A DNA stretch of 20,792 bases from an uncultured archaeon (GTDB lineage: Archaea; Iainarchaeota; Iainarchaeia; Iainarchaeales; 0-14-0-20-30-16), in NCBI GenBank assembly GCA_964565725.1, contig CAZMGA010000010.1, forward strand, positions 1,733 through 22,524, in the 5' to 3' direction. The translations under genes were made by a program, and so were the position numbers. Positions within the stretch are counted from its first letter, which is position 1. The number at the start of each line of letters is the position of its first letter. Of the stretch, positions 1 to 12,981 are shown piece by piece. Below the pieces are notes generated by a model. The model saw nothing but the letters and a program-made list of their open reading frames with translations. It had not been told where the DNA came from and did not search any database.

Positions 1-3000
1 AACAATGAAGGATTTATATTACCAAAATTACCATATCCTGAAAACATACTTTGATAATTTTGAACTCCTAAAATTACAGGATCAAAAGCATTACTACCCA
101 TGATAGTTCCATTTGAAGATATTATTTGTAAACATCTTGACAAATCACTAACAGAATTTTCTTTTTCTAACTTAGTAGTTATTTCTTGTAAACCATTATT
201 TGTAGGATAATAAGCTTTAATAGTAAAAATTACTTTTGAAGTCTCAGAAATTACATCACTAGACTCTTTAAAATTCAAATCAAAATTATTATTTCCTGTT
301 TTTAATACTTCAAATAATTCTAATCCTTCTTCTTTAATTTCTAATTTATCATTAGTATATTTACCTAATTCTTTACCATCCCATTCAACAAAGATTTTAA
401 CATTATTTAATTTTGCAGGGTTAGTATTATAATTACAATTATTAATTAAATTATATTCATCATCTTTTATATTTTTTAAAGTTAAACAATCAACAGAATC
501 TAAAGAATCTCCTAATTTTATATAAATATTCAAAGGGATTTTTGCATTCCAACTTGTGTTTACTTCTTCACTAGTTAAAACTAAATCTAAATATGTTGTA
601 AAAGATTTAGGTTCTAATAAATTTTCACCAAATTCAGTTAATTTTGCATTTAAATCCAAATTTATATTTCCATCAATATACATATTAGTATGTAAATTAG
701 TTTTTAATTCCATATATTTACCAAAAGAATTATCTACAAAACCAAATTTAGTTATTTTTAATTTATATGGTAAAGGTGTACTTAAATTTATAGTCTTAAA
801 TGCTTTATCATTATTTTCTTTATCAATAGAAAAAATTATTTCAGGTAAACTAGAAATTAAAATATTTTCATTTATTTTTATTTCTGAATTTATCACATTA
901 TAACTTGGAGCGCTCACATTAATTTTTAAAGTATCCCCAACATTAGGTTTTTGAATTTCAAAACTATATTGTCCAAAATCATTTGTTTTTCCACTACTTA
1001 ATAAAGTATCATTCAAATACAAATTTACTTTTGCATTATTAATTAAAGAATTATCATCTAAACTTTTAACTTCAATATATCCAGTATTATTTACAAAAGG
1101 AACAATTACTTTAGGATATAAATCAACAGTTAAATTATAAGGATTTTCTACACTTACAGTTATATCTTGTTCAAATAAAATTTCTGATTTATTTGATTCT
1201 AAACCTATTTTCAAAATACTATTTCCAGTTTTTGTAGTATTTATTTTAAAATTACCTATTAATTCAGCATTTTGATTAAATTCAGATAATTTTGCAATAT
1301 ATTTTGTACCTGATTTTTCAAATTTAATATTTGTATTATTTAAAGTTCCAACAACAGAAGAAATATCTAATGCGTTAGTTGAATCAATTACTAATTTTAA
1401 ATCTGTAAAATTAGTTTTTTTAGCATTAATTAAATTAAAATTAAAATTTGTTTCTGTATTATATGAAGAATATAATTCATCATAAACTTTTGTAGATACT
1501 AAATCATCAGTAGCAGTCATATCTATACAAGCAATATCTTTACAAATTAAATCTCCTGATTTTAAAGGGATAGACAAAGTATTTGCATAAAAGCTCATTT
1601 TTTCAGAAACACTTTCACTTTGCCCTAAAACAGTATCTAAAGGCAATCTAATAAAAGAACTTCCTGCTTTTAACATAGCCCTATAATTTAATCTAAATAA
1701 ACTAGCTTCACTATCATTAACTGAAAATTTAACTTTAACTAATGTAGCACCAGCATTAATTTTACTTAATTTAGATTGTATCCATAAAGCATCATCATTA
1801 GTTTTATTTTGAACATCTGTAGCATAACCATTAGGATAATTATAAGTTGTTCCTTTTACATTTGAACCATAAACTACTTCTACATCTTTCAATATAACAT
1901 CGCTTTCACCAAGATTTACAGCATTACCTAAAAAGAATAATTCTCCTTCTGAATAAGCAGTTTTTGGAACATTCAATACAAAAACAGCATAATATTCATT
2001 ATTTCTTAATACATTATAAGGTACAGAAGTTATTTCGCTACCATCAGCATTATAAATACCCAATAAATTAAAACTTAAATTAGTATTATATGCTGTAAAA
2101 TAAGTATTAATATTTACTGTTTGATTTGTTTCTAAATTTACAAATAAAGAATAACTTGCACCAGTATCACTATATGCTTTTGCATAAACTGTTTTATCAG
2201 CACTTATACCATAAAAATGAGCAATTCCTAATTCATCAGTTATAGTAGTATTTGATACTTTTTTATTAGAATATAAATCATATAAATCTACACTCAAATT
2301 AGTAATAGGCAAACCTTTTAAATCTAAAACTGAAACATCTACATTTCCCCTACCAACTATTAAATTAACATTAATTTTATTTATTTGTCTAATATCTAAA
2401 ATTAAAGGGGTAGAAGTTTGTGAATAATCACCTTTATTTACTACAACATAATATGCAACATTAGATTCTAATCTATCAAATACAACTGAACCTTCGGCAC
2501 CAGTTAATTTTGTAGAAATTAAAGCTTCATCTTTGTATAATTTCACAGTAGCATTTGCAGAAATTTCATCATTAGCTGTAACATTAACTGTTAGAGAAAC
2601 ATTATCTTTAACAGGTTGTAATATAATATTTAAAGGTACATCAGAAACAGTAATTTTACTATTATAATACATATATCTTGCATCATCAACTACAATATTG
2701 TATTCTCCCAATTCACTAACAGGTAATTCAAATAAACCTTTATCAGATTCTAATAAAATATATTCTTTTAAAATATAATTATTTTTAGAAATAATTATTT
2801 TTGCACCATTAACTGTAGAAACACTATCCATTACTTTTACTTTTAATTTACCTACATTAGTATTTGATAATTGTACTCTACAACTTATAGTATTATTTTC
2901 TATAACCTCTCTATTACATTCTGAATCAACATTAATAGTATTTAATACACTATATTGTCCTTCAGGATCATTAATAATAAAATAATATTCTTTATTTGCA

Positions 3001-3869
3001 GGCAATTCTAAATTTATAGTTCCCGATTCATCAGTATAACCTTGACCTTGTAGATTATCATTGGAAACAAAATAAGCAGAAACTTCCATATTTGGCAAAA
3101 TTTCATTATTCATGTTTTCAACAGTTATACTTACATTTCCTTTTATTTTTTCAGAATCAACTACAACAGTTAAATCACCATTCAAAGATAAATCTTTTTC
3201 AATATTATATTCTTCTGATGAAATATGTATACTTTTACAGTCGTTAGGTAAATTAGTTAAGTCTAAAGTACCATTATTTACAGTATATATATCATTATAA
3301 TCTATTTCATTACAACTTACATTTAATTCTATTAATTCAGAAAACATAGCTGTTGTATCTTCATCTTTATATAATGTTAAAATTTTGTTAGATAATAAAT
3401 TAGATGAATCTAAAACATAAATAATATAATCAGAATCTTCTTCAAAAATTAATTGATCAGTTGAATCTAATATATAATTATCATTTAATAATTTTAAAGA
3501 AACAATTTCATTTTTCGGAACTCTCATTTTAATATATCCCGAATAATCAGTAGTTTCTGTTATATAATCGTTGCCATAAGATAATTTTACTTCTAAATTT
3601 GGCACTGCAACATTATTTGTGGTGTCTATAAAATATAAATTTGCAGTTATACTTTGGTGTCCTACAACCCCAGTAAAAAACAAGATTAAAAATATAATCA
3701 AACATAATACAAGAATATTAAAAATCCCCATAAAAACAACAGGATTTATGTTTTTTTCTTGCAACCAATTGTCAATCTTATAAGGAAAATGCATTCCTTT
3801 TGAATCAAACCAATCTAACAAAGCATAATGCTTTTCTTCTAACTTGTAATATAAGTCAGATAATCCCAT
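1..3869 (-). CDS. Giant membrane-anchored surface protein, N-terminal 1289 codons (C-terminus lies beyond the window start); tandem carboxypeptidase-regulatory-like / Ig-like beta-sandwich repeats
   Basis: The ORF track misses it because its stop lies outside the window. Reading the reverse complement from ATG 3869-3867 stays open to position 3. I checked plus-strand triplets in register 3,6,9... for tta/cta/tca over 3-62, 600-659, 900-962, 1980-2042 and 3240-3302 and found none; the rest I translated by eye without meeting a stop. The N-terminus is MGLSDLYYKLEEKHYALLDWFDSKGMHFPYKIDNWLQEKNINPVVFMGIFNILVLCLIIFLILFFTGVVGHQS, with one TM helix at about nt 3740-3663. Repeat units follow, e.g. GNVSITVENMNNEILPNMEVSAYFVSNDNLQGQGYTDESGTINLELPANKEYYFIINDPEGQY. 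GGTG (3876-3879) sits 6 nt upstream of the ATG and a TATA-like run lies at 3882-3893. Confidence 0.85.
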   Translation of the reverse strand, partial: MGLSDLYYKLEEKHYALLDWFDSKGMHFPYKIDNWLQEKNINPVVFMGIFNILVLCLIIFLILFFTGVVGHQSITANLYFIDTTNNVAVPNLEVKLSYGNDYITETTDYSGYIKMRVPKNEIVSLKLLNDNYILDSTDQLIFEEDSDYIIYVLDSSNLLSNKILTLYKDEDTTAMFSELIELNVSCNEIDYNDIYTVNNGTLDLTNLPNDCKSIHISSEEYNIEKDLSLNGDLTVVVDSEKIKGNVSITVENMNNEILPNMEVSAYFVSNDNLQGQGYTDESGTINLELPANKEYYFIINDPEGQYSVLNTINVDSECNREVIENNTISCRVQLSNTNVGKLKVKVMDSVSTVNGAKIIISKNNYILKEYILLESDKGLFELPVSELGEYNIVVDDARYMYYNSKITVSDVPLNIILQPVKDNVSLTVNVTANDEISANATVKLYKDEALISTKLTGAEGSVVFDRLESNVAYYVVVNKGDYSQTSTPLILDIRQINKINVNLIVGRGNVDVSVLDLKGLPITNLSVDLYDLYSNKKVSNTTITDELGIAHFYGISADKTVYAKAYSDTGASYSLFVNLETNQTVNINTYFTAYNTNLSFNLLGIYNADGSEITSVPYNVLRNNEYYAVFVLNVPKTAYSEGELFFLGNAVNLGESDVILKDVEVVYGSNVKGTTYNYPNGYATDVQNKTNDDALWIQSKLSKINAGATLVKVKFSVNDSEASLFRLNYRAMLKAGSSFIRLPLDTVLGQSESVSEKMSFYANTLSIPLKSGDLICKDIACIDMTATDDLVSTKVYDELYSSYNTETNFNFNLINAKKTNFTDLKLVIDSTNALDISSVVGTLNNTNIKFEKSGTKYIAKLSEFNQNAELIGNFKINTTKTGNSILKIGLESNKSEILFEQDITVSVENPYNLTVDLYPKVIVPFVNNTGYIEVKSLDDNSLINNAKVNLYLNDTLLSSGKTNDFGQYSFEIQKPNVGDTLKINVSAPSYNVINSEIKINENILISSLPEIIFSIDKENNDKAFKTINLSTPLPYKLKITKFGFVDNSFGKYMELKTNLHTNMYIDGNINLDLNAKLTEFGENLLEPKSFTTYLDLVLTSEEVNTSWNAKIPLNIYIKLGDSLDSVDCLTLKNIKDDEYNLINNCNYNTNPAKLNNVKIFVEWDGKELGKYTNDKLEIKEEGLELFEVLKTGNNNFDLNFKESSDVISETSKVIFTIKAYYPTNNGLQEITTKLEKENSVSDLSRCLQIISSNGTIMGSNAFDPVILGVQNYQSMFSGYGNFGNINPSL

Positions 3870-3965
3870 ATACAACACCACTAATATATATATGACTACA
3901 AAAGCTTTTAAATACTTCACTCAAAAGGAGAATAATTTATAATCCTTTTGATCTTTTGTAATTAT
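3870..3965. promoter_or_regulatory. Divergent promoter region between the giant surface-protein gene (minus) and the DUF192 gene (plus)
   Basis: A 96-nt A/T-rich spacer. TATA-like TTTATAAT (3936-3943) is centred about 27 nt upstream of ATG 3966, the usual archaeal TATA-to-TSS distance, which would imply a leaderless mRNA. ATATATATATTA on the minus strand (3882-3893) lies upstream of ATG 3869. No experimental support. Confidence 0.35.
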
Positions 3966-7110: not shown

Positions 7111-7644
7111 TTATTTTAAAACTTCATACAATTCTTTATTTAAAATAATTTTATTTACTTTACCTAAATTTTGTTTATATATGATTTCTTTATTCTCTAA
7201 ATTTAACAATATTCTATGAGCTTTAATTTTTGAAACACCTTCTAATCTATTTAACTCATATTGATAGATTTCACCATTATTACTTATAATTTTTTCTATT
7301 ATTTGTTTTTCTTCTTTACTTAAAAAATTTAATATGATCTTTGTATTTTTCTTTTGAACGTTTTCGGTTTTAATTAATTTATTAGACAAGAAATAAAATA
7401 TTATTGCTCCAGCTAATAAACCAAAAAAACCCATTATCCCAAAAGCATAAATCCCATTCATAAATCTATTATCAGGGGGTTTCATTCTATTAAAATCATT
7501 AAAGTTATAATCTTTTAAATCAGATTTATTTATTTGTACAGTATTATTTATTTGTTTATAACTAATTAAAAAAATAATTAAAAAAATAATTATTACAAAA
7601 ACAAATATTAAAAGCACATTAAATCTATTTTTTAAAAAAGTCAT
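7111..7644 (-). CDS. Membrane-tethered winged-helix transcriptional regulator (2 TM helices + C-terminal wHTH; COG2512-like architecture)
   Basis: TM1 NVLLIFVFVIIIFLIIFLISY, a loop of about 45 aa, TM2 IYAFGIMGFFGLLAGAIIFYFL, then LSKEEKQIIEKIISNNGEIYQYELNRLEGVSKIKAHRILLNLENKEIIYKQNLGKVNKIIL (wHTH pattern). The ORF track extends to 7749, but that extension translates the A/T repeat array and overlaps the divergent gene. ATG 7644 (MTFLKNRF...) is preferred. Confidence 0.75.
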   Translation of the reverse strand: MTFLKNRFNVLLIFVFVIIIFLIIFLISYKQINNTVQINKSDLKDYNFNDFNRMKPPDNRFMNGIYAFGIMGFFGLLAGAIIFYFLSNKLIKTENVQKKNTKIILNFLSKEEKQIIEKIISNNGEIYQYELNRLEGVSKIKAHRILLNLENKEIIYKQNLGKVNKIILNKELYEVLK

Positions 7645-7668
7645 AATTATATAAAGGACATTTAATTT

Positions 7669-7748
7669 AAAAAACAATCGTTTCAAAAAAAAGAAACTAA
7701 GTTTCACAAAAAAAACAATCGTTTCAAAAATTAATATATATGGTTTCA
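7669..7748. promoter_or_regulatory. Candidate operator array: 21-nt perfect direct repeat x2, central GAAAC-N3-GTTTC palindrome, four GTTTCA motifs phased at about 21 bp
   Basis: AAAAAACAATCGTTTCAAAAA occurs at 7669-7689 and 7710-7730. GAACTAAGTTTC-type palindrome GAAACTAAGTTTC lies at 7693-7705. GTTTCA occurs at 7680, 7701, 7721 and 7743. TATA-like TTAATATATA lies at 7731-7740. The array sits between divergent genes, one of which encodes a wHTH protein. Confidence 0.5.
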
Positions 7749-8498
7749 AATATAGATATATTTGGTGAAAGATTGAAAGAATTAAAATCTAATGTTATTT
7801 TAGAATTAAAAAACATATATAAGACATATAAAATTGGGGATACTGAAATAAAAGCAAATAATGGTATAAATTTAAAAATTTTAGAAGGTGAATTTATATC
7901 TATTATAGGAGCATCAGGTTCAGGAAAATCTACTACATTATCCTTAATAGGTTTATTAGATTATCCTACAAAAGGAGATATATTTTTAGATAATACAAAT
8001 ATAACAAAAAAACCAGAATCTGAAATTGCTAGAATCCGTGGTTCAAAAATAGGTTTTATATTTCAAACATTTAATTTATATCCTTCCCTAACTGTTTATG
8101 AAAATATAACCTTGCCTATGAAAATTCACAATATTTCAGAAAATATAATCAAAAAAAGAGTTCCTGAATTAATAAATGTAGTAGGATTAAATCACAGAAT
8201 AAATCATATTCCTAAAGAATTATCTGGCGGAGAAAGACAAAGAGTAGCAATAGCTAGAGCTTTAGCTACAGATCCAAAAATAATTTTGGCAGATGAACCT
8301 ACTGGTAATTTAGACTCTAAAACAAGTATTGAAATAATAAAGCTTTTAACAAAATTAAATAAAGATAATAACAAAACAATCATATTAGTAACACATGAAT
8401 CTGAAATTGCAAAATATACTAATAGAACTATCGAAATAAAAGATGGTAAAATAATTTACGATGGTTCTACAAAAAAAAGATATGAGGTGAAAAAATGA
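7740..8498 (+). CDS. ABC transporter ATP-binding protein, MacB/LolD/FtsE-like (COG1136)
   Basis: Walker A GASGSGKST, Q-loop FIFQTFNL, signature LSGGERQRVAIARAL, Walker B ILADEPTGNLD, H-loop VTHE. An alternative start is the in-frame TTG at 7773, preceded by GGTGA (7764-7768). Confidence 0.93.
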   Translation: MVSNIDIFGERLKELKSNVILELKNIYKTYKIGDTEIKANNGINLKILEGEFISIIGASGSGKSTTLSLIGLLDYPTKGDIFLDNTNITKKPESEIARIRGSKIGFIFQTFNLYPSLTVYENITLPMKIHNISENIIKKRVPELINVVGLNHRINHIPKELSGGERQRVAIARALATDPKIILADEPTGNLDSKTSIEIIKLLTKLNKDNNKTIILVTHESEIAKYTNRTIEIKDGKIIYDGSTKKRYEVKK

Positions 8499-9778
8499 AA
8501 TTTATTAATAAAAATATACTATTAGGATTATTTGTAATATTGTGTTTAACATTTTCTTTTTGCACAACAACAGATCCAGCACATTTAATAAATATTAATA
8601 GTGTAAATTATTTACCTAACACTATTTATCCTGGGGATGTTGTGAGTTTAGCAATAAATATAGAAGATATTGGTACAATAAATTACATTAAAGATTTAAC
8701 TGTGAGTTATGAATTAGATGATGCTTTTACAAATGTAGAAAATTCATATTTTATAGATGAAATAAAACCAAAAATGCAAAAAACAGCAATATTAAAATTT
8801 AAAGTAAATGAAAATACTATTGCAGGATATTATCCCATATTATTAAATTTTGATTATTATAGAAATGGAAATAAAATAAATGAAACACAAGAATTAACAA
8901 TTCCAATAACAAAAACATCTAAAAATATATTATTAACAGTAAGCCCTAAAAAAATAAATCCAGGAAAAGAATCAGAATTACAATTAACTTTAACTAATTC
9001 AAATAATTCAACAATCTCAAATATTGAAGTTTCATGGTATGAAGAAAATAATTTGATTTTACCTTTAGGTTCTGATAATATAAAATCTATTAAAAGTATA
9101 GAAGGAAATACTTTTGAAACTGTTTATTATAATGTAGCTACAGACCCGAATTTAAGTCCAGGAATATACACCTTAAAAACAACAATTAAATTTAATGATT
9201 CTAATGGTATAAAAACACAAACATCTAATATAGGAATAATAATTGGTGGAGAAACTGATTTTGATGTTAGTGTGGAATATGAAGGCAACAACGAATATTC
9301 CTTTAGTATTGCAAATATAGGAACAAACGATGCAGAATCTACTTTAATAGAAATTCCTGAACAAACTGGAATAAAAACTATAGGTACAAATCAAGCAATA
9401 TTGGGAGGCATAGATAGAGGAGATTACACTATGGCTACTTTTACCATAATAAACTCTAATATGACTATGCAAAAAATAGATCCTAACAATATATCAAAAG
9501 ACGAAAATTTTAGAAAACTTGAAAATAAAAATAACGATTTAAATATAATTTTATATTATACAGATACAACAGGAAAAAGACAAACAATAACTAAAACTGT
9601 AAATTTAAATAACAATACATTAACATCTAATACAAACTTAAAACCTCAAAAAAATAATAATAATTGGTTATTTGTGATTATAGGCATAATAATAATTATT
9701 TTTACAAGTGTAATTTTTACAAAAAGAGAATATATTAAAACATTAATAATTAAATTTAAAAAAAGAGGATTTAAATGA
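8495..9778 (+). CDS. Bitopic extracytoplasmic protein with three CARDB/COG1361-like beta-sandwich units, an N-terminal signal/anchor and a C-terminal TM anchor
   Basis: ATGA overlap with the ATPase stop (8495-8498), and GAGGTGA (8484-8490) 4 nt upstream. The N-terminus is hydrophobic (ILLGLFVILCLTFSF). Three units of about 100 aa follow (YPGDVVSLAINIEDIG...; INPGKESELQLTLTNSNNSTISNIEVSW...; EYSFSIANIGTNDAESTLIEIP...). The C-terminus is WLFVIIGIIIIIFTSVIFT plus a KR-rich tail. The family call rests on motif pattern only. Confidence 0.8.
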   Translation: MKFINKNILLGLFVILCLTFSFCTTTDPAHLININSVNYLPNTIYPGDVVSLAINIEDIGTINYIKDLTVSYELDDAFTNVENSYFIDEIKPKMQKTAILKFKVNENTIAGYYPILLNFDYYRNGNKINETQELTIPITKTSKNILLTVSPKKINPGKESELQLTLTNSNNSTISNIEVSWYEENNLILPLGSDNIKSIKSIEGNTFETVYYNVATDPNLSPGIYTLKTTIKFNDSNGIKTQTSNIGIIIGGETDFDVSVEYEGNNEYSFSIANIGTNDAESTLIEIPEQTGIKTIGTNQAILGGIDRGDYTMATFTIINSNMTMQKIDPNNISKDENFRKLENKNNDLNIILYYTDTTGKRQTITKTVNLNNNTLTSNTNLKPQKNNNNWLFVIIGIIIIIFTSVIFTKREYIKTLIIKFKKRGFK

Positions 9779-11019
9779 AACTTTTAGATACTTTCAAATT
9801 ATCAATTAATAGTATTTTAAATAGAAAATTAAGATCTTGGTTAACTCTATTAGGAATAATAATTGGTGTTGCGGCAGTAGTATCTATAGTTTCAATAAGT
9901 CAAGGTGCACAAGAAAGCATTGAAGATCAAATGAATAGTTTTGGTGCAGATTTAATAACAATTAATCCTGGTTATTCTAGAAGTATGAATTTTAGCATGG
10001 GCCCACCAGGAATGAATAATACAAATAACAAAACTACCAATAATGAAGATCCTGTTTTAACAAAAAAAGATTTAACAAAAATAATTGGAAATTCAAATAT
10101 TATTATTGCAAGTCCAATAGTATCTGAAAGATTAGAGTTATATTATGGGTCTGAAAAAATAAATATTAATTTAACAGGTATTGATCCATTAGCATCTAAA
10201 GATATATTTGATATTATTTTAAGTTCTGGAAGACTACTAACAACAAGTGATACTTCGGCAATAATAATTTCTTATGATTTAGCAAATTCAACCTTTGATA
10301 GACTAATTACAATAGGCAAAAAATTAACAATTGGTTCTGAAAATTTTATAGTTGTAGGAATATTAGAAAATAATGAAACAAGAAATACTGTTTATATGAA
10401 TTACAAAACAGCTTGGTCTATAACAGAAGATACAGAAAAAGGAAATTTTACTTCAATTAAAGCAAAAGTTGATGACTTAAATAATATTGAAAATACTATA
10501 GAAAATATTACAAAAACATTAGCAATATCTCGAAGAGTTTATGGAAAAGATTATGACTTTTCAATTAGTTCTCCATCAAGTATGAAAGAAAGATTAGAAG
10601 AAATGACAAATACTATGACTTTATTTTTAGGGGGTATAGCAATTATATCTTTATTGGTAGGCGCAATAGGCGTTGCTAATTCCATGTTCACATCCGTATT
10701 AGAAAAAACAAAAGAAATAGGAATTTTAAAATCTTTAGGAGCTACAAATAAAGAAGTATTAATTTTATTTTTAATAGAATCCGGATTATTTGGGTTAATT
10801 GGAGGAATATTAGGCGTATTATTAGGAGCATTAGTTTCTTTAGGATTTTCAGGAATTGGAATTAGAATGATTATGAATGGAAACACTTCTGCACAAATAT
10901 CTCCAGAAATAGTAATTATAGCTATATTAATTTCGACAATAATAGGAATAATTTCGGGTTTAATACCAGCAATTAAAGCCTCAAAATTACGACCTATAGA
11001 AGCATTAAGATATGAGTAA
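9775..11019 (+). CDS. ABC transporter permease, MacB/FtsX family (COG0577)
   Basis: ATGA overlap with the upstream stop (9775-9778), and GAGGA (9764-9768) upstream. TM1 WLTLLGIIIGVAAVVSIVSI is followed by an extracytoplasmic domain of about 240 aa. The FtsX-type C-terminal bundle then follows (LFLGGIAIISLLVGAIGVANSM..., GILKSLGATNKEVLILFLIESGLFGLIGGILGVLLG..., PAIKASKLRPIEALRYE). Confidence 0.9.
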   Translation: MKLLDTFKLSINSILNRKLRSWLTLLGIIIGVAAVVSIVSISQGAQESIEDQMNSFGADLITINPGYSRSMNFSMGPPGMNNTNNKTTNNEDPVLTKKDLTKIIGNSNIIIASPIVSERLELYYGSEKININLTGIDPLASKDIFDIILSSGRLLTTSDTSAIIISYDLANSTFDRLITIGKKLTIGSENFIVVGILENNETRNTVYMNYKTAWSITEDTEKGNFTSIKAKVDDLNNIENTIENITKTLAISRRVYGKDYDFSISSPSSMKERLEEMTNTMTLFLGGIAIISLLVGAIGVANSMFTSVLEKTKEIGILKSLGATNKEVLILFLIESGLFGLIGGILGVLLGALVSLGFSGIGIRMIMNGNTSAQISPEIVIIAILISTIIGIISGLIPAIKASKLRPIEALRYE

Positions 11020-12198
11020 TTAAATTATATCTTTTATTTCTTTTACTATTTGTAATTCTTCATTTGTAGGAATTACTAATCCTATAATTTTAGAATTTTC
11101 ATTTGTTAAAAATGTTTTATTTGCTTCATTATTTTCATCATTCAAATCTAATCCTAAATATCTAAAATGTTCTAAAACTAATTTTCTTAAATAAGGTGAA
11201 TTTTCTCCTATCCCACCAGTAAAAACTATAGCATCAACACCTTGCATTTCTGCGATGTATGAACCTATAATTTTAACAATTCTATTTACTAAAATATTAT
11301 TTGCTAATAATGCTATTTCATCTCCTTCTTTAGATTTAGTTTCAATAACATAATGATTAGAGCTTATATTACTTATACCCAATAATCCTGATTTTTTATT
11401 TAATGCATTTTTAATATCTTCTTTTGTTAATCCTTGTTCCAATAAAAATAATATTATTTCAGGATCAAAACTTCCGGATCTTGTCCCCATAGGCAAACCT
11501 TCTAAAGGAGTAAAACCCATTGAAGTATCATAACTTTTTGCATCCTTTATTGCAGTAATACTTTGACCATTACCTAAATGGCAAGTAATTATTTTTAAAT
11601 CTCTTAAATTTTTATTTAAAATATTTGCACATTGATTTGCAACATATTTATGACTTATTCCGTGAAACCCATATTTTCTAATTTTATATTTTTCATAAAA
11701 TTCATAAGGTAAACCATAAAGATAAATTTCTTTTGGCATAGTACTATGAAAAGCAGTATCAAATACAGAAAATTCTTTAACATTAGGTAATTTTTCTAAA
11801 AATATATTTATACATTGTAAATTTATTGGATTATGTAATGGAGCTAAGAAACTCATTTGTTCTAAAGTTTCTAAAACATCATTATTTATTTCAATAGTTT
11901 TATTATATTTTTCTCCACCATGTACAACTCTATGACCTATATATTTTATATCATCTAAAGAATTTAATAAATTTTTTTTTATTATTAAATTTAAAAAGTC
12001 ATCTATTGCTTCTTTATGCGTATTAAAATTTAAAATTACTTTTTCTTTAACATCATTAATTATTATTGCTCGATTAGCATTAGGTGCATTTAATAAACAA
12101 CTATAATTTGCACTTACAATACATTTTTCACTTTCAAATTCAAAAACTTGTGCCTTTAAGGAACTACTACCGGCATTAATTACTAATATATAATTCAT
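11020..12198 (-). CDS. ackA: Acetate kinase
   Basis: ILVINAGSSSLKAQVF, GHRVVHGG, VFDTAFHSTMP, YGFHGISHKYV, CHLGNGQS, DTSMGFTPLEGLPMGTRSGSFDP, FTGGIGENS. The ORF-track start 12207 is a GTG inside GGTGA (12204-12208). ATG 12198 (MNYILV...), 5 nt downstream of that motif, is preferred. Confidence 0.92.
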   Translation of the reverse strand: MNYILVINAGSSSLKAQVFEFESEKCIVSANYSCLLNAPNANRAIIINDVKEKVILNFNTHKEAIDDFLNLIIKKNLLNSLDDIKYIGHRVVHGGEKYNKTIEINNDVLETLEQMSFLAPLHNPINLQCINIFLEKLPNVKEFSVFDTAFHSTMPKEIYLYGLPYEFYEKYKIRKYGFHGISHKYVANQCANILNKNLRDLKIITCHLGNGQSITAIKDAKSYDTSMGFTPLEGLPMGTRSGSFDPEIILFLLEQGLTKEDIKNALNKKSGLLGISNISSNHYVIETKSKEGDEIALLANNILVNRIVKIIGSYIAEMQGVDAIVFTGGIGENSPYLRKLVLEHFRYLGLDLNDENNEANKTFLTNENSKIIGLVIPTNEELQIVKEIKDII

Positions 12199-12909: not shown

Positions 12910-12981
12910 TGCCCCTGCCGGGAATTGAACCCAGGTCATTAGAGTGAGAGTCTAATATGATAACCACTACACTACAGGGAC
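12910..12981 (-). tRNA. tRNA-Glu (anticodon CUC), no intron, CCA not encoded
   Basis: The reverse complement folds by hand as GTCCCTG TA GTGT AGTGGTTA TCAT A TTAGA CTCTCAC TCTAA TGAC CTGGG TTCAATT CCCGG CAGGGGC A. That gives a 7-bp acceptor stem (one G-U), a 5-bp anticodon stem, a 5-bp T stem and a T-loop TTCAATT. Anticodon-loop positions 34-36 are CTC, and the discriminator is A. Confidence 0.9.

What the first reader, a model, noticed from the sequence alone, without database searches (positions are those of the whole stretch)
7111..11019. Divergent membrane-tethered wHTH regulator and a translationally coupled MacB-type ABC pair enclosing a bitopic triple beta-sandwich protein: candidate uncharacterised archaeal envelope machine
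Seen in the sequence: three plus-strand genes are chained by ATGA start/stop overlaps (8495-8498, 9775-9778). The two downstream genes each have an SD-like motif (GAGGTGA 8484-8490, GAGGA 9764-9768), so the three are almost certainly made together. The ATPase has all ABC motifs. The permease has the MacB/FtsX layout: TM1, a large extracytoplasmic domain of about 240 aa, then 3 C-terminal TMs. The gene between them encodes a protein anchored at both ends (N-terminal hydrophobic segment, C-terminal TM plus KR tail) with three beta-sandwich-like units of about 100 aa. A wHTH protein with two TM helices and an external loop of about 45 aa is transcribed divergently from the same control region. 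Established knowledge: MacB/LolCDE/FtsEX-type (type VII) ABC systems do work outside the membrane by mechanotransmission to an extracytoplasmic partner (MacA, LolA, EnvC/PcsB). No homologue of any such partner is present here. Inference: the triple beta-sandwich protein is the extracytoplasmic partner or client of the ABC motor, for example an adaptor analogue spanning the space beneath the S-layer, or a surface module that is extruded or remodelled. The membrane-tethered regulator would then couple envelope state to expression. I do not know of a characterised function for this four-part arrangement.
Basis: partly seen in the sequence, partly recalled or inferred. Interest (0 to 1): 0.72.

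Follow-up and report, generated by a model that had tools for sequence, protein, structure and literature searches.

The report
Archaeal MacB-type pump with Ig-like partner
This is a conserved but unstudied four-gene membrane module of (mainly) archaea: an ATP-driven MacB-type pump whose two genes always enclose a gene for a surface protein made of Ig-like domains, controlled by a neighbouring membrane-anchored DNA-binding sensor. It matters because it looks like a new kind of partner for a well-known pump family, and its job is not yet known.

Summary
Window 7111-11019 holds a divergent membrane-tethered winged-helix regulator (Reg, real start probably ATG 7644) and three genes chained by ATGA overlaps. 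These are a LolD/MJ0796-like ABC ATPase, a COG1361/CARDB-type protein (Mid) and a MacB-type permease.

AlphaFold models Mid (pLDDT 87) as three beta-sandwiches, a stalk and one C-terminal TM helix. Its N-terminal hydrophobic segment is a cleavable signal peptide, not a second anchor.

The arrangement is not a one-off:
- In about 80 genome loci from DPANN phyla, Methanosarcinales, Bathyarchaeia and Hydrothermarchaeota, Mid relatives always lie between the ATPase and permease genes, usually within 15 nt. A Clostridia MAG has the same trio.
- A Reg homologue lies just upstream in 36 of 70 loci. Twenty others carry a split membrane-protein plus wHTH pair.
- The control regions hold co-oriented, helically phased GTTTCA repeats (25/kb against 1/kb; four copies in the window). 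This is a likely Reg operator.

No paper, solved structure or curated family describes the module.

Best reading: an inducible type VII ABC machine with Mid as a dedicated extracytoplasmic accessory subunit. Whether Mid is partner or client, and what the substrate is, remain untested.

Verdict: a new variant of a known kind, of moderately high interest.

The parts
7111..7644 (-). Reg: membrane-tethered winged-helix regulator (177 aa, DUF7343 family). TM1 is about residues 9-28 and TM2 about residues 63-86. The external loop between them contains DFNRM. The cytoplasmic wHTH covers residues 110-176 (window 7114-7317).
   Evidence: ORF. Independent gene calls of 177 aa. Pfam DUF7343 27.4 bits. 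All 25 relatives carry PF24034. AF2 model. Foldseek matches to MarR/ArsR/CodY winged helices.
7645..7760 (+). Shared divergent control region. It holds four co-oriented GTTTCA hexamers at 7680, 7701, 7721 and 7743 (spacing 21/20/22 nt). It also holds an exact 21-nt direct repeat, AAAAAACAATCGTTTCAAAAA, at 7669-7689 and 7710-7730. This is the putative Reg operator array.
   Evidence: Four copies in 116 nt against 0.13 expected (Poisson P=1e-5). The same hexamer occurs at 24.8/kb in 29 homologous intergenic regions against 1.0/kb elsewhere, with 72 of 78 copies co-oriented. It is absent where a different regulator type replaces Reg.
7740..8498 (+). ABC ATPase of the LolD/MacB/FtsE clade (252 aa; possible alternative start at TTG 7773).
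   Evidence: Pfam ABC_tran E=1.3e-33. NCBIfam LolD 242.7 bits, below the equivalog cut-off. Best PDB match MJ0796 E=3.5e-65.
8484..8498 (+). SD-like GAGGTGA (8484-8490) and the ATGA stop/start overlap (8495-8498) between ATPase and Mid.
   Evidence: An SD-like motif lies upstream of Mid in 54 of 77 loci against 12% background, and 36 of 77 junctions overlap.
8495..9778 (+). Mid: a COG1361/CARDB/NEW3-type type I membrane protein (427 aa). Signal peptide, residues 1-23. Beta-sandwich D1, residues 32-138 (window 8588-8908). D2, residues 145-250 (8927-9244). D3, residues 256-370 (9260-9604). N/T-rich stalk. TM, residues 391-409 (9665-9721). Basic tail.
   Evidence: AF2 pLDDT 87.3. Family-level Pfam: CARDB in 35 of 48 relatives and NEW3 in 33 of 48. 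Sources name relatives 'COG1361 S-layer family protein'. Generic Ig-like PDB matches. Conservation runs D3 > D2 > D1 > TM.
9764..9778 (+). SD-like GAGGA (9764-9768) and the ATGA stop/start overlap (9775-9778) between Mid and the permease.
   Evidence: The Mid-to-permease gap is 15 nt or less in 57 of 79 loci.
9775..11019 (+). MacB-type (type VII ABC) permease (414 aa). TM1 is about residues 21-43. The extracytoplasmic domain is about residues 44-283 (window 9904-10623). TM2-4 are about residues 284-405.
   Evidence: Pfam MacB_PCD E=8.7e-31 and FtsX E=5.2e-20. Full-length alignment to MacB (5GKO, 5LIL, 5NIK) and Spr0695 (5XU1).

Best explanation
The locus encodes an inducible type VII (MacB-type) ABC machine with a lineage-specific accessory subunit.

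Shown:
- The ATPase and the four-TM permease with a roughly 240-aa external domain are standard MacB-class parts.
- The gene wedged between them encodes a signal-peptide-bearing, C-terminally anchored protein with three CARDB/NEW3 beta-sandwiches.
- The three genes are translationally coupled and are inherited as a fixed unit across many archaeal phyla and at least one Clostridia genome.
- A divergently transcribed two-TM winged-helix protein and a phased array of GTTTCA repeats accompany them.

Inferred:
- Mid is made in step with the transporter. It sits beside the permease's external domain through its conserved membrane-proximal domains D2-D3, while the variable distal domain(s) reach outward.
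- ATP-driven movements of the permease (mechanotransmission, as in MacB, LolCDE and FtsEX) are passed to or through Mid. This would expel or extract an amphiphilic or peptide substrate from the outer face of the membrane. Mid would then play a role analogous to MacA, LptC, MlaD or EnvC.
- Reg binds the GTTTCA array, which flanks the ABC promoter and, in relatives, runs into Reg's own first codons. It would switch the operon according to an envelope signal sensed by its D-x-N-rich external loop or by contact with the transporter. This resembles BcrR or BceS with their ABC transporters.

The substrate is unknown.
For: - Domain identities.
- Mid model with three beta-sandwiches, a stalk and a TM helix.
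- Family-level CARDB/NEW3 matches.
- Invariant ATPase-Mid-permease order in about 80 loci across DPANN, Methanosarcinales, Bathyarchaeia and Hydrothermarchaeota. Also in Thermoclostridium.
- Short or overlapping junctions and SD-like motifs.
- Family size of 1371 clusters at E<=1e-30.
- Conservation gradient D3 > D2 > D1, with the distal domain lost or multiplied in relatives.
- Reg homologue adjacent in 36 of 70 loci, and a functionally analogous split membrane-protein plus wHTH pair in 20 more.
- wHTH fold of Reg.
- GTTTCA array enriched about 25-fold, co-oriented, spaced at 10 or 22 nt, and present only with the DUF7343-type regulator.
- No MFP, LolA or EnvC-like gene nearby.
- Co-evolution of the three proteins as a unit.
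Against: - No direct evidence of a Mid-permease interface. Multimer modelling could not be run.
- No Mid-ABC fusion proteins were found among the best 150 relatives.
- The Mid TM helix is poorly conserved, so an LptC-like intramembrane contact is not indicated.
- The mirror-tree signal is no stronger for the permease external domain than for its TM part.
- Reg-type proteins also occur next to unrelated genes, and half of the loci lack this exact regulator.
- DNA binding to GTTTCA is inferred from co-occurrence only.
- It is not known whether the system transports anything.
Confidence: 0.55

Rival explanations
1. Mid is the client rather than a subunit. The MacB-type motor would extract, release or position this C-terminally anchored surface protein, in the way LolCDE removes lipoproteins from the membrane. 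The goal might be to build or renew a surface (S-layer-like) coat.
For: - Sources name relatives 'COG1361 S-layer family protein'.
- Mid has a signal peptide, an N/T-rich stalk and a single weakly conserved TM anchor, like many archaeal surface proteins.
- The closest ATPase relatives include LolD.
- Some loci add a small lipobox protein to the operon.
Against: - A cargo is expected in large excess over its transporter. Here Mid's gene sits between the two transporter genes with overlapping stop/start codons in most lineages, which argues for matched synthesis.
- The most conserved parts are the membrane-proximal domains, not the distal surface.
- NCBIfam LolC/E and LolD scores are far below the equivalog cut-offs.
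Confidence: 0.2
2. The system is FtsEX-like and transports nothing. ATP hydrolysis would switch the conformation of Mid (or of a protein Mid binds) to control an extracellular activity such as adhesion, cell-cell contact or envelope remodelling. Reg would report the state back to transcription.
For: - Type VII ABC systems such as FtsEX act purely as mechanical switches for external partners (established knowledge; MacB family review PMC8277102).
- CARDB-type modules are viewed as adhesion modules in DPANN surface proteins (PMC5498576).
- The module is retained in small DPANN genomes.
- A Clostridia version lies next to an NlpC/P60 hydrolase gene.
Against: - The permease is much closer to MacB and Spr0695 (E=1e-42 to 1e-35, full length) than to FtsX (35-40 bits, C-terminal part only).
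- No enzyme or adhesin partner is conserved next to the trio. The accessory genes vary by lineage.
Confidence: 0.15
3. The adjacency is incidental. Mid would be an independent surface protein that merely happens to lie between two ABC genes, and Reg would regulate something else.
For: Reg-family proteins occur in other gene contexts. CARDB/NEW3 proteins are very common (12431 clusters at E<=1e-3).
Against: - Every relative of this Mid subfamily with enough flanking DNA lies between the same two genes, across phyla separated by deep divergence.
- The junctions are overlapping or very short.
- The three proteins co-vary as a unit.
- The operator-like array tracks the regulator type.
Confidence: 0.03

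Closest known systems
MacAB(-TolC), and the Gram-positive MacAB-like pump Spr0693-0694-0695 / YknXYZ
   Same: - The permease has the MacB layout (TM1, large external domain, three C-terminal TMs). It aligns full length to MacB and Spr0695.
- The ATPase belongs to the same clade.
- An operon-encoded single-pass accessory protein with a beta-rich external part accompanies the pump.
   Different: - No membrane-fusion protein (HlyD/MacA family) is present.
- The accessory is a C-terminally anchored chain of CARDB/NEW3 Ig-like domains, encoded between the ATPase and permease genes.
- There is no outer membrane and no TolC.
- The ATPase is a separate polypeptide.
LolCDE lipoprotein extractor
   Same: LolD is the best-scoring NCBIfam model for the ATPase (242.7 bits). 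The permease C-terminal half matches LolC/E. Both do their work on the outer face of the membrane.
   Different: Scores are well below the equivalog cut-offs (307.75 for LolD, 362 for LolC/E). There is one permease gene rather than two, and no LolA or LolB. Mid has no counterpart.
FtsEX with EnvC, PcsB or CwlO
   Same: Type VII ABC motor that drives an extracytoplasmic partner by mechanotransmission.
   Different: FtsE and FtsX models score below their cut-offs (213 against 264.85; 35-40 against 250). The partner here is membrane-anchored and Ig-like, not a coiled-coil hydrolase activator. Archaea of this kind have no peptidoglycan.
LptB2FG-LptC and MlaFEDB (ABC transporters with a bitopic beta-rich accessory subunit)
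   Same: This is an analogy of concept. A single-pass protein encoded in the operon places a beta-rich external domain on top of or beside the transporter.
   Different: These are different ABC classes and different folds (beta-jellyroll, MCE). LptC is N-terminally anchored. The Mid TM helix is not conserved.
BcrR and BceS-BceAB (membrane-bound sensors that control an ABC transporter); ArnR (archaeal membrane-bound wHTH regulator)
   Same: A one-component, membrane-embedded DNA-binding or signalling protein is encoded next to, and presumably controls, an ABC transporter. Membrane-tethered wHTH regulators are known in archaea (from my own knowledge, not tested here).
   Different: Reg has its two TM helices at the N-terminus and a DUF7343 winged helix at the C-terminus. 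It has no kinase and no HAMP domain. Its ligand and DNA site are untested.
COG1361 / CARDB / NEW3 surface proteins of archaea
   Same: The fold and family-level Pfam matches agree. Sources use the same name for relatives.
   Different: This subfamily is defined by its fixed position inside an ABC operon and by a conserved D2-D3-stalk-TM core. There is no evidence that it forms an S-layer.

Membership tests
Type VII (MacB/FtsX-type) ABC transporter | Permease with four TM helices and a large extracytoplasmic domain between TM1 and TM2 (MacB_PCD plus FtsX domains) | tested here: met
   Pfam MacB_PCD E=8.7e-31 (residues 21-247) and FtsX E=5.2e-20 (288-405). Full-length alignment to MacB structures.
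Type VII (MacB/FtsX-type) ABC transporter | Cognate NBD of the LolD/MacB/FtsE clade with complete ABC motifs | tested here: met
   ABC_tran E=1.3e-33. Top NCBIfam hits are LolD, DarD, FtsE and MacB. MJ0796 E=3.5e-65. The motifs are read directly from the translation.
Type VII (MacB/FtsX-type) ABC transporter | Homodimeric assembly and mechanotransmission to the external domain | not testable with these tools
   Needs biochemistry or multimer modelling.
MacAB-TolC / MFP-dependent tripartite pumps | Membrane-fusion (HlyD/MacA-type) adaptor encoded with the pump | tested here: not met
   No HlyD-family match among the window ORFs or among the annotated neighbours in related loci.
LolCDE | Proteins reach the NCBIfam equivalog scores for LolD and LolC/E; two permease paralogues; LolA chaperone present | tested here: not met
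   LolD 242.7 against 307.75. LolC/E 81.2 against 362.45. There is one permease gene and no LolA-like gene.
FtsEX | Proteins reach the FtsE and FtsX equivalog scores | tested here: not met
   FtsE 213 against 264.85. FtsX 34.6-40.1 against 250-255.
BceAB-type resistance transporters | Ten-TM permease with an external domain between TM7 and TM8; paired with a BceRS two-component system | tested here: not met
   The permease has 414 aa and the four-TM MacB layout. No histidine kinase or response regulator is present in the window.
COG1361 / CARDB / NEW3 beta-sandwich surface proteins | Tandem Ig-like CARDB/NEW3 domains, secretion signal, membrane or surface attachment | tested here: met
   - The window protein alone is below the Pfam cut-offs (NEW3 15.6 against 24.4 bits).
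- Of 48 relatives, 35 match CARDB and 33 match NEW3.
- The AF2 model shows three beta-sandwiches.
- Signal-peptide features.
S-layer protein (as implied by the COG1361 name) | Forms the paracrystalline surface lattice; very abundant | not testable with these tools
   This is only a database name. The operon position argues against coat-like abundance, but that is inference.
DUF7343 winged-helix proteins | Match to PF24034 and a winged-helix fold | tested here: met
   27.4 bits against a 27.6 cut-off in my scan. PF24034 is precomputed for this protein and all 25 relatives. The AF2 model plus Foldseek gives MarR/ArsR/CodY wHTH matches at prob 1.0.
Known anti-phage defence systems (PADLOC) | Specific match to a defence-system protein model | tested here: not met
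   Only generic ABC-ATPase and LolE-TM similarities appear. Reg and Mid have no match.

The most novel reading that the evidence does not exclude
The trio would be the monoderm and archaeal counterpart of the envelope-spanning ABC machines of diderm bacteria.
- Several copies of Mid would assemble around the MacB-like dimer into a beta-sandwich scaffold or conduit. Its length would be set by the number of distal domains, so that it crosses the space under the S-layer or cell wall.
- Through it the motor would move a lipid-linked or amphiphilic molecule to or from the cell surface. In host-dependent DPANN cells this could possibly include material exchanged with the host.
- Reg and the small operon-encoded proteins would share D-x-N repeats because they compete for the same site on the Mid/permease ectodomain. 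That would give the cell a direct read-out of transporter occupancy.
Probability: 0.15. Interest if true: 0.85.

Novelty: new variant of a known kind. Interest (0 to 1): 0.6.

Why it matters
MacB-type ABC systems are understood almost entirely from bacteria, where each works through a known external partner (MacA, LolA, EnvC). Archaeal members are essentially unstudied.

This analysis defines a large family (more than 1300 sequence clusters) that is phylogenetically broad. In it the partner slot is filled by an Ig-like, C-terminally anchored protein that has been annotated only as a generic 'S-layer family' protein.

It also supplies a candidate regulator, a candidate operator sequence and a candidate sensing motif. 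Several concrete experiments therefore become possible: complex purification, EMSA on GTTTCA repeats, and mutant phenotypes in a Methanosarcinales relative or in Clostridia.

The module is retained in tiny DPANN genomes, which hints at a role at the cell surface that these host-dependent archaea cannot do without.

Tried and rejected
2. A sequence-profile search of the PDB with the Mid family found nothing significant (AbpX at E=0.03).
3. A paired Mid-linker-permease alignment (69 pairs) was built for a pseudo-multimer AlphaFold run. I did not submit it, because the predictor accepts only window or database proteins. The interface test remains undone.
4. The first search for related loci attempt with the 48-sequence alignment failed for lack of a conserved stretch. 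A 12-sequence alignment worked.
5. A profile search of the word-indexed protein database did not reach cultured archaea, so no experimentally tractable host was identified.
6. I looked for natural fusions of Mid with ABC parts among the long relatives. They only carry extra beta-sandwich domains.
7. The bacterial sigma-70 promoter and terminator scan was no better than shuffles and is irrelevant for an archaeon.
8. PADLOC gave only generic ABC similarity, so the defence-system idea was rejected.
9. The mirror-tree test gave significant but non-specific co-variation. It cannot separate a physical contact from joint inheritance.
10. I tested whether the GTTTCA enrichment is an artefact of the conserved Reg N-terminal peptide MKxxET. 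Restricting to strictly non-coding positions left the enrichment intact.
11. Nine literature searches (COG1361, COG0577/COG1136, CARDB/MacB/FtsX/archaea, arCOG, 'archaeal genomic dark matter', mechanotransmission, DUF7343) found no description of the module.

Full report
**What is in the sequence**

The window is very AT-rich (GC about 20-26% around the locus). It carries archaeal housekeeping genes: aspartyl-tRNA synthetase, acetate kinase, EF-1alpha, EF-2, ribosomal proteins and RNA polymerase A subunits.

The four ORFs of the finding are present as described:
- 7111-7749 on the minus strand
- 7740-8498 on the plus strand
- 8495-9778 on the plus strand
- 9775-11019 on the plus strand

Both plus-strand junctions are ATGA stop/start overlaps, each preceded by the quoted purine-rich motif. 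These are GAGGTGA at 8484-8490 and GAGGA at 9764-9768. The permease stop codon (11017-11019) abuts the stop of the convergent acetate kinase gene. The operon therefore has exactly three genes.

**The four proteins**

*ATPase.* It matches ABC_tran (E=1.3e-33). Its best curated models are LolD, DarD, FtsE and MacB, all below their equivalog cut-offs. Its closest solved relative is the archaeal MJ0796 (E=3.5e-65).

*Permease.* It has MacB_PCD (residues 21-247) and FtsX (288-405). It aligns over its full length to MacB from three species and to the pneumococcal Spr0695 (E=1e-42 to 1e-35). To LolC/E, YtrF and FtsX it aligns only through its C-terminal part.

*Mid.* On its own it has no significant Pfam match. 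It has 111 database relatives at E<=1e-3 in a word-indexed search. An exhaustive profile search finds 1371 clusters (50% identity) at E<=1e-30. Of 48 diverse relatives, 35 match CARDB and 33 match NEW3. Some sources name relatives 'COG1361 S-layer family protein'.

The AlphaFold2 model, built on a 48-sequence alignment, is confident (mean pLDDT 87.3). It shows:
- three beta-sandwiches (residues 32-138, 145-250, 256-370)
- a low-confidence insert in the third sandwich
- a disordered N/T-rich stalk
- a C-terminal helix at 391-409, followed by a basic amphipathic tail

Foldseek against the PDB returns only generic multi-Ig proteins. A profile search of PDB sequences finds nothing significant.

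*Reg.* It most likely starts at ATG 7644 (177 aa). Independent gene calls on two other assemblies and the N-termini of 23 homologues agree on this. Its model has two long helices (3-35 and 60-106) separated by an unstructured loop, and a C-terminal domain that Foldseek matches to MarR, ArsR and CodY winged helices. All detected relatives carry Pfam DUF7343.

**Correction on the topology of Mid**

Across the family the N-terminus has about two K/R residues. A hydrophobic core with a median of 15 residues follows, and then a small-x-small site (VSA, AFA, AYA, AQA; SFC in the window) just before the first beta-sandwich. This is the signature of a cleavable Sec signal peptide, not a stable anchor. 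The mature protein is therefore a type I membrane protein with one C-terminal anchor. This rests on sequence rules, because no signal-peptide predictor was available.

**Conservation of the arrangement**

I fetched 80 genome loci that encode Mid relatives and five more through exact-protein look-ups. I then annotated their ORFs with the four window proteins.

- *Gene order.* In every locus with enough flanking DNA the order is ATPase, Mid, permease on one strand.
- *Mid-to-permease gap.* It is 15 nt or less in 57 of 79 cases.
- *ATPase/Mid junction.* It overlaps in 36 of 77 cases.
- *SD-like motifs.* One precedes Mid in 54 of 77 loci, against 12% background.
- *Taxa.* Iainarchaeota, Micrarchaeota, Woesearchaeota, Nanoarchaeota, Aenigmatarchaeota, Nanohaloarchaea, Methanosarcinales (including Ca. 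Methanoperedens and ANME-3), Bathyarchaeia and Hydrothermarchaeota.
- *Bacteria.* A Thermoclostridium MAG has the same overlapping trio with an 812-aa CARDB protein. The module is therefore not strictly archaeal.
- *Domain number.* Relatives carry from two beta-sandwiches (about 300 aa, Woesearchaeota) to five or more. The longer ones only add sandwiches, with no fusions to ABC parts.
- *Conservation within Mid.* It falls from the membrane-proximal D3 (1.4-1.6 bits column entropy) through D2 (1.8) to D1 (2.4). The TM helix is poorly conserved (2.5).

**The regulator and its likely operator**

An iterated profile finds a Reg homologue immediately upstream of the ATPase in 36 of 70 loci with enough sequence. 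Of these, 33 are divergent.

In 20 of the remaining loci the same position holds a divergent pair instead: a multi-TM protein of about 230 aa with no Pfam match, followed by a 91-aa HTH_45 winged-helix protein. This looks like a split version of the same idea, a membrane part plus a wHTH.

In the window, the 95-nt intergenic region and the first bases of the ATPase ORF contain four co-oriented GTTTCA hexamers, at 7680, 7701, 7721 and 7743. Two of them lie in an exact 21-nt direct repeat. That is four copies in 116 nt where 0.13 are expected.

The same hexamer is found in 29 homologous divergent regions:
- It occurs at 24.8 per kb in strictly non-coding sequence, against 1.0 per kb elsewhere in the same loci.
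- 72 of 78 copies point the same way as the ABC operon.
- The preferred spacings are 10 and 22 nt.
- In many relatives the array continues into the first codons of Reg.
- Loci with the split regulator lack the array (1.7 per kb).

This pattern is what one expects of the operator of the DUF7343 regulator, but binding itself is inferred. Reg-family proteins also occur beside unrelated genes, so the family is a general membrane-tethered regulator type with one branch dedicated to this operon.

**Accessory genes and a shared motif**

Sixteen Iainarchaeota loci insert a small gene between the ATPase and Mid genes. It encodes an N-terminal TM segment or lipobox, a G/P/N/F-rich 'RDFNG' spacer and a duplicated 'LGLPxDAT' motif. 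The window has no such gene. Other lineages add different small secreted proteins, and none has a Pfam match.

D-[FALIVM]-N triplets are about ten-fold over-represented in two places. In the external loops of Reg proteins there are 39, against 3.5 +/- 1.9 in shuffles. In the small proteins there are 14, against 1.7 +/- 1.3. The window's Reg loop has DFNRM. A shared short motif in two external segments suggests a common docking site, but this is speculation.

**How it most likely works**

*Shown.* A MacB-class ATPase-permease pair, an Ig-like type I membrane protein and a membrane-tethered wHTH protein are encoded together. The first three are translationally coupled and are inherited as a fixed unit. 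Their pairwise divergences correlate at r=0.79-0.89. With the ATPase as control, the partial correlations are 0.32-0.46, close to the intra-permease control of 0.51.

*Inferred from established knowledge of type VII ABC systems* (MacB, LolCDE, FtsEX; review PMC8277102). These motors lack a transmembrane channel and do their work outside the membrane through a partner. No MFP, LolA or EnvC-like gene is present. The invariant middle gene is therefore the obvious candidate for that partner. Its conserved membrane-proximal domains would lie at the height of the permease's external domain, and its variable distal domains would point outward.

The placement of the gene between the two transporter genes, with overlapping codons, favours matched synthesis. 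That points to a subunit rather than an abundant cargo. I rate the 'accessory subunit of an inducible extruder or extractor' reading at 0.55. The rivals are 'Mid is the client' at 0.2, 'FtsEX-like switch without transport' at 0.15, and coincidence at 0.03. The substrate is unknown.

**Comparison with known systems**

The ABC pair is a member of the type VII class. The defining features I could test are met. It is not LolCDE, FtsEX, BceAB or an MFP-dependent MacAB pump, because defining features of each were tested and not met (no MFP).

Mid belongs to the CARDB/NEW3 (COG1361) fold class. 'S-layer' is only a database label.

In function, Mid may resemble MacA, LptC, MlaD or EnvC. Reg may resemble BcrR, or the BceS-BceAB pairing. 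These are analogies, not homologies.

PADLOC gives only generic ABC similarity.

**Novelty**

Nine full-text searches found no description of this arrangement, of DUF7343, or of a function for COG1361 beyond 'S-layer domain'. The library does not cover most subscription-journal papers, so a prior comparative-genomics mention cannot be excluded.

I classify the finding as a new variant of a known kind: a MacB-type system with a new class of partner, a dedicated membrane-tethered regulator and a candidate operator.

**Limits**

- No multimer modelling, signal-peptide predictor, transcript data or cultured host was available.
- The locus survey started from Mid. The fraction of archaeal MacB-type pumps that lack Mid is therefore unknown.
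- The ATPase start is ambiguous. ATG 7740 gives a 19-residue extension that does not align to LolD or MJ0796. TTG 7773 is preceded by GGTGA at 7763-7767.

Noticed in passing
L009:1980-2288, L010:4559-4969, L011:4402-5001, L023:4648-4989, L035:4615-4977 and 11 further loci: An extra small gene (about 100-150 aa) lies between the ATPase and Mid genes in 16 Iainarchaeota loci. It encodes an N-terminal TM segment or lipobox, an 'RDFNG'-type G/P/N/F-rich spacer and a duplicated 'LGLPxDAT' motif. It has no Pfam match and is absent from the window.
   Followed up: partly
window 7459-7560 (Reg external loop) and Reg homologues in L006-L041: D-[FALIVM]-N triplets are about ten-fold over-represented in the external loops of Reg proteins and in the small accessory proteins. 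This suggests a shared docking motif.
   Followed up: partly
L003:2500-3508, L023:2201-3206, L043:3123-4114 and 17 further loci: Where the fused TM-wHTH regulator is missing, a divergent pair takes its place: a multi-TM protein of about 230 aa (no Pfam match) plus a 91-aa HTH_45 winged-helix protein. These loci lack the GTTTCA array.
   Followed up: partly
L008:3616-4140, L023:3383-3877, L054:3688-4227 and 12 further loci: A helical protein of about 150-180 aa, with a signal peptide and a G/R/F/N-rich tail, lies next to the trio in 15 loci. It has no Pfam match.
   Followed up: no
L092:4304-8803: A Thermoclostridium (Clostridia) MAG carries the same overlapping trio with an 812-aa CARDB/NEW3 protein. 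An NlpC/P60+SH3 cell-wall hydrolase gene lies about 350 nt upstream.
   Followed up: partly
L087:3797-6911 and L088:1931-5045: A distant NEW3-domain membrane protein is encoded directly upstream of an ABC ATPase and an ABC-2-type permease. A similar beta-sandwich partner is thus combined with a different ABC class.
   Followed up: no
L086:372-3684: A distant Mid relative (412 aa) lies next to a divergent TrmB/DUF7436 regulator gene and is followed by an unannotated gene that runs off the contig. This may be another regulator swap.
   Followed up: no
window 3-3920 (minus strand): An open reading frame of more than 1306 aa runs off the start of the window. Its only Pfam match is a CarboxypepD_reg domain. 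It is probably a giant surface protein of the kind common in DPANN archaea.
   Followed up: no
window 7740-7775: The ATPase may start at TTG 7773, preceded by GGTGA at 7763-7767, rather than at ATG 7740. In that case the fourth GTTTCA and a TATA-like TTAATATATA (7731-7740) would lie in the promoter or leader.
   Followed up: partly
window 11017-11022: The stop codons of the permease gene and of the convergent acetate kinase gene are directly adjacent, with no spacer. A T-rich run follows inside the acetate kinase 3' end.
   Followed up: no
L007, L067, L069: Three contigs are labelled as bacterial MAGs (Gammaproteobacteria, Cloacimonadota, Nitrospirae). They carry modules that resemble those of Iainarchaeota (L007) or of the Methanosarcinales/Methanoperedens loci (L067, L069). 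This is probably binning contamination.
   Followed up: no
L023 (contig JAFGDB010000104.1): This contig has exactly the window's length (20792 nt) and carries the same module, but blastn finds no nucleotide similarity to the window. The match in length is a coincidence.
   Followed up: yes
window 12910-12981 (minus strand): A tRNA gene (Rfam RF00005, 63.4 bits). It is the only RNA family match in the window.
   Followed up: no
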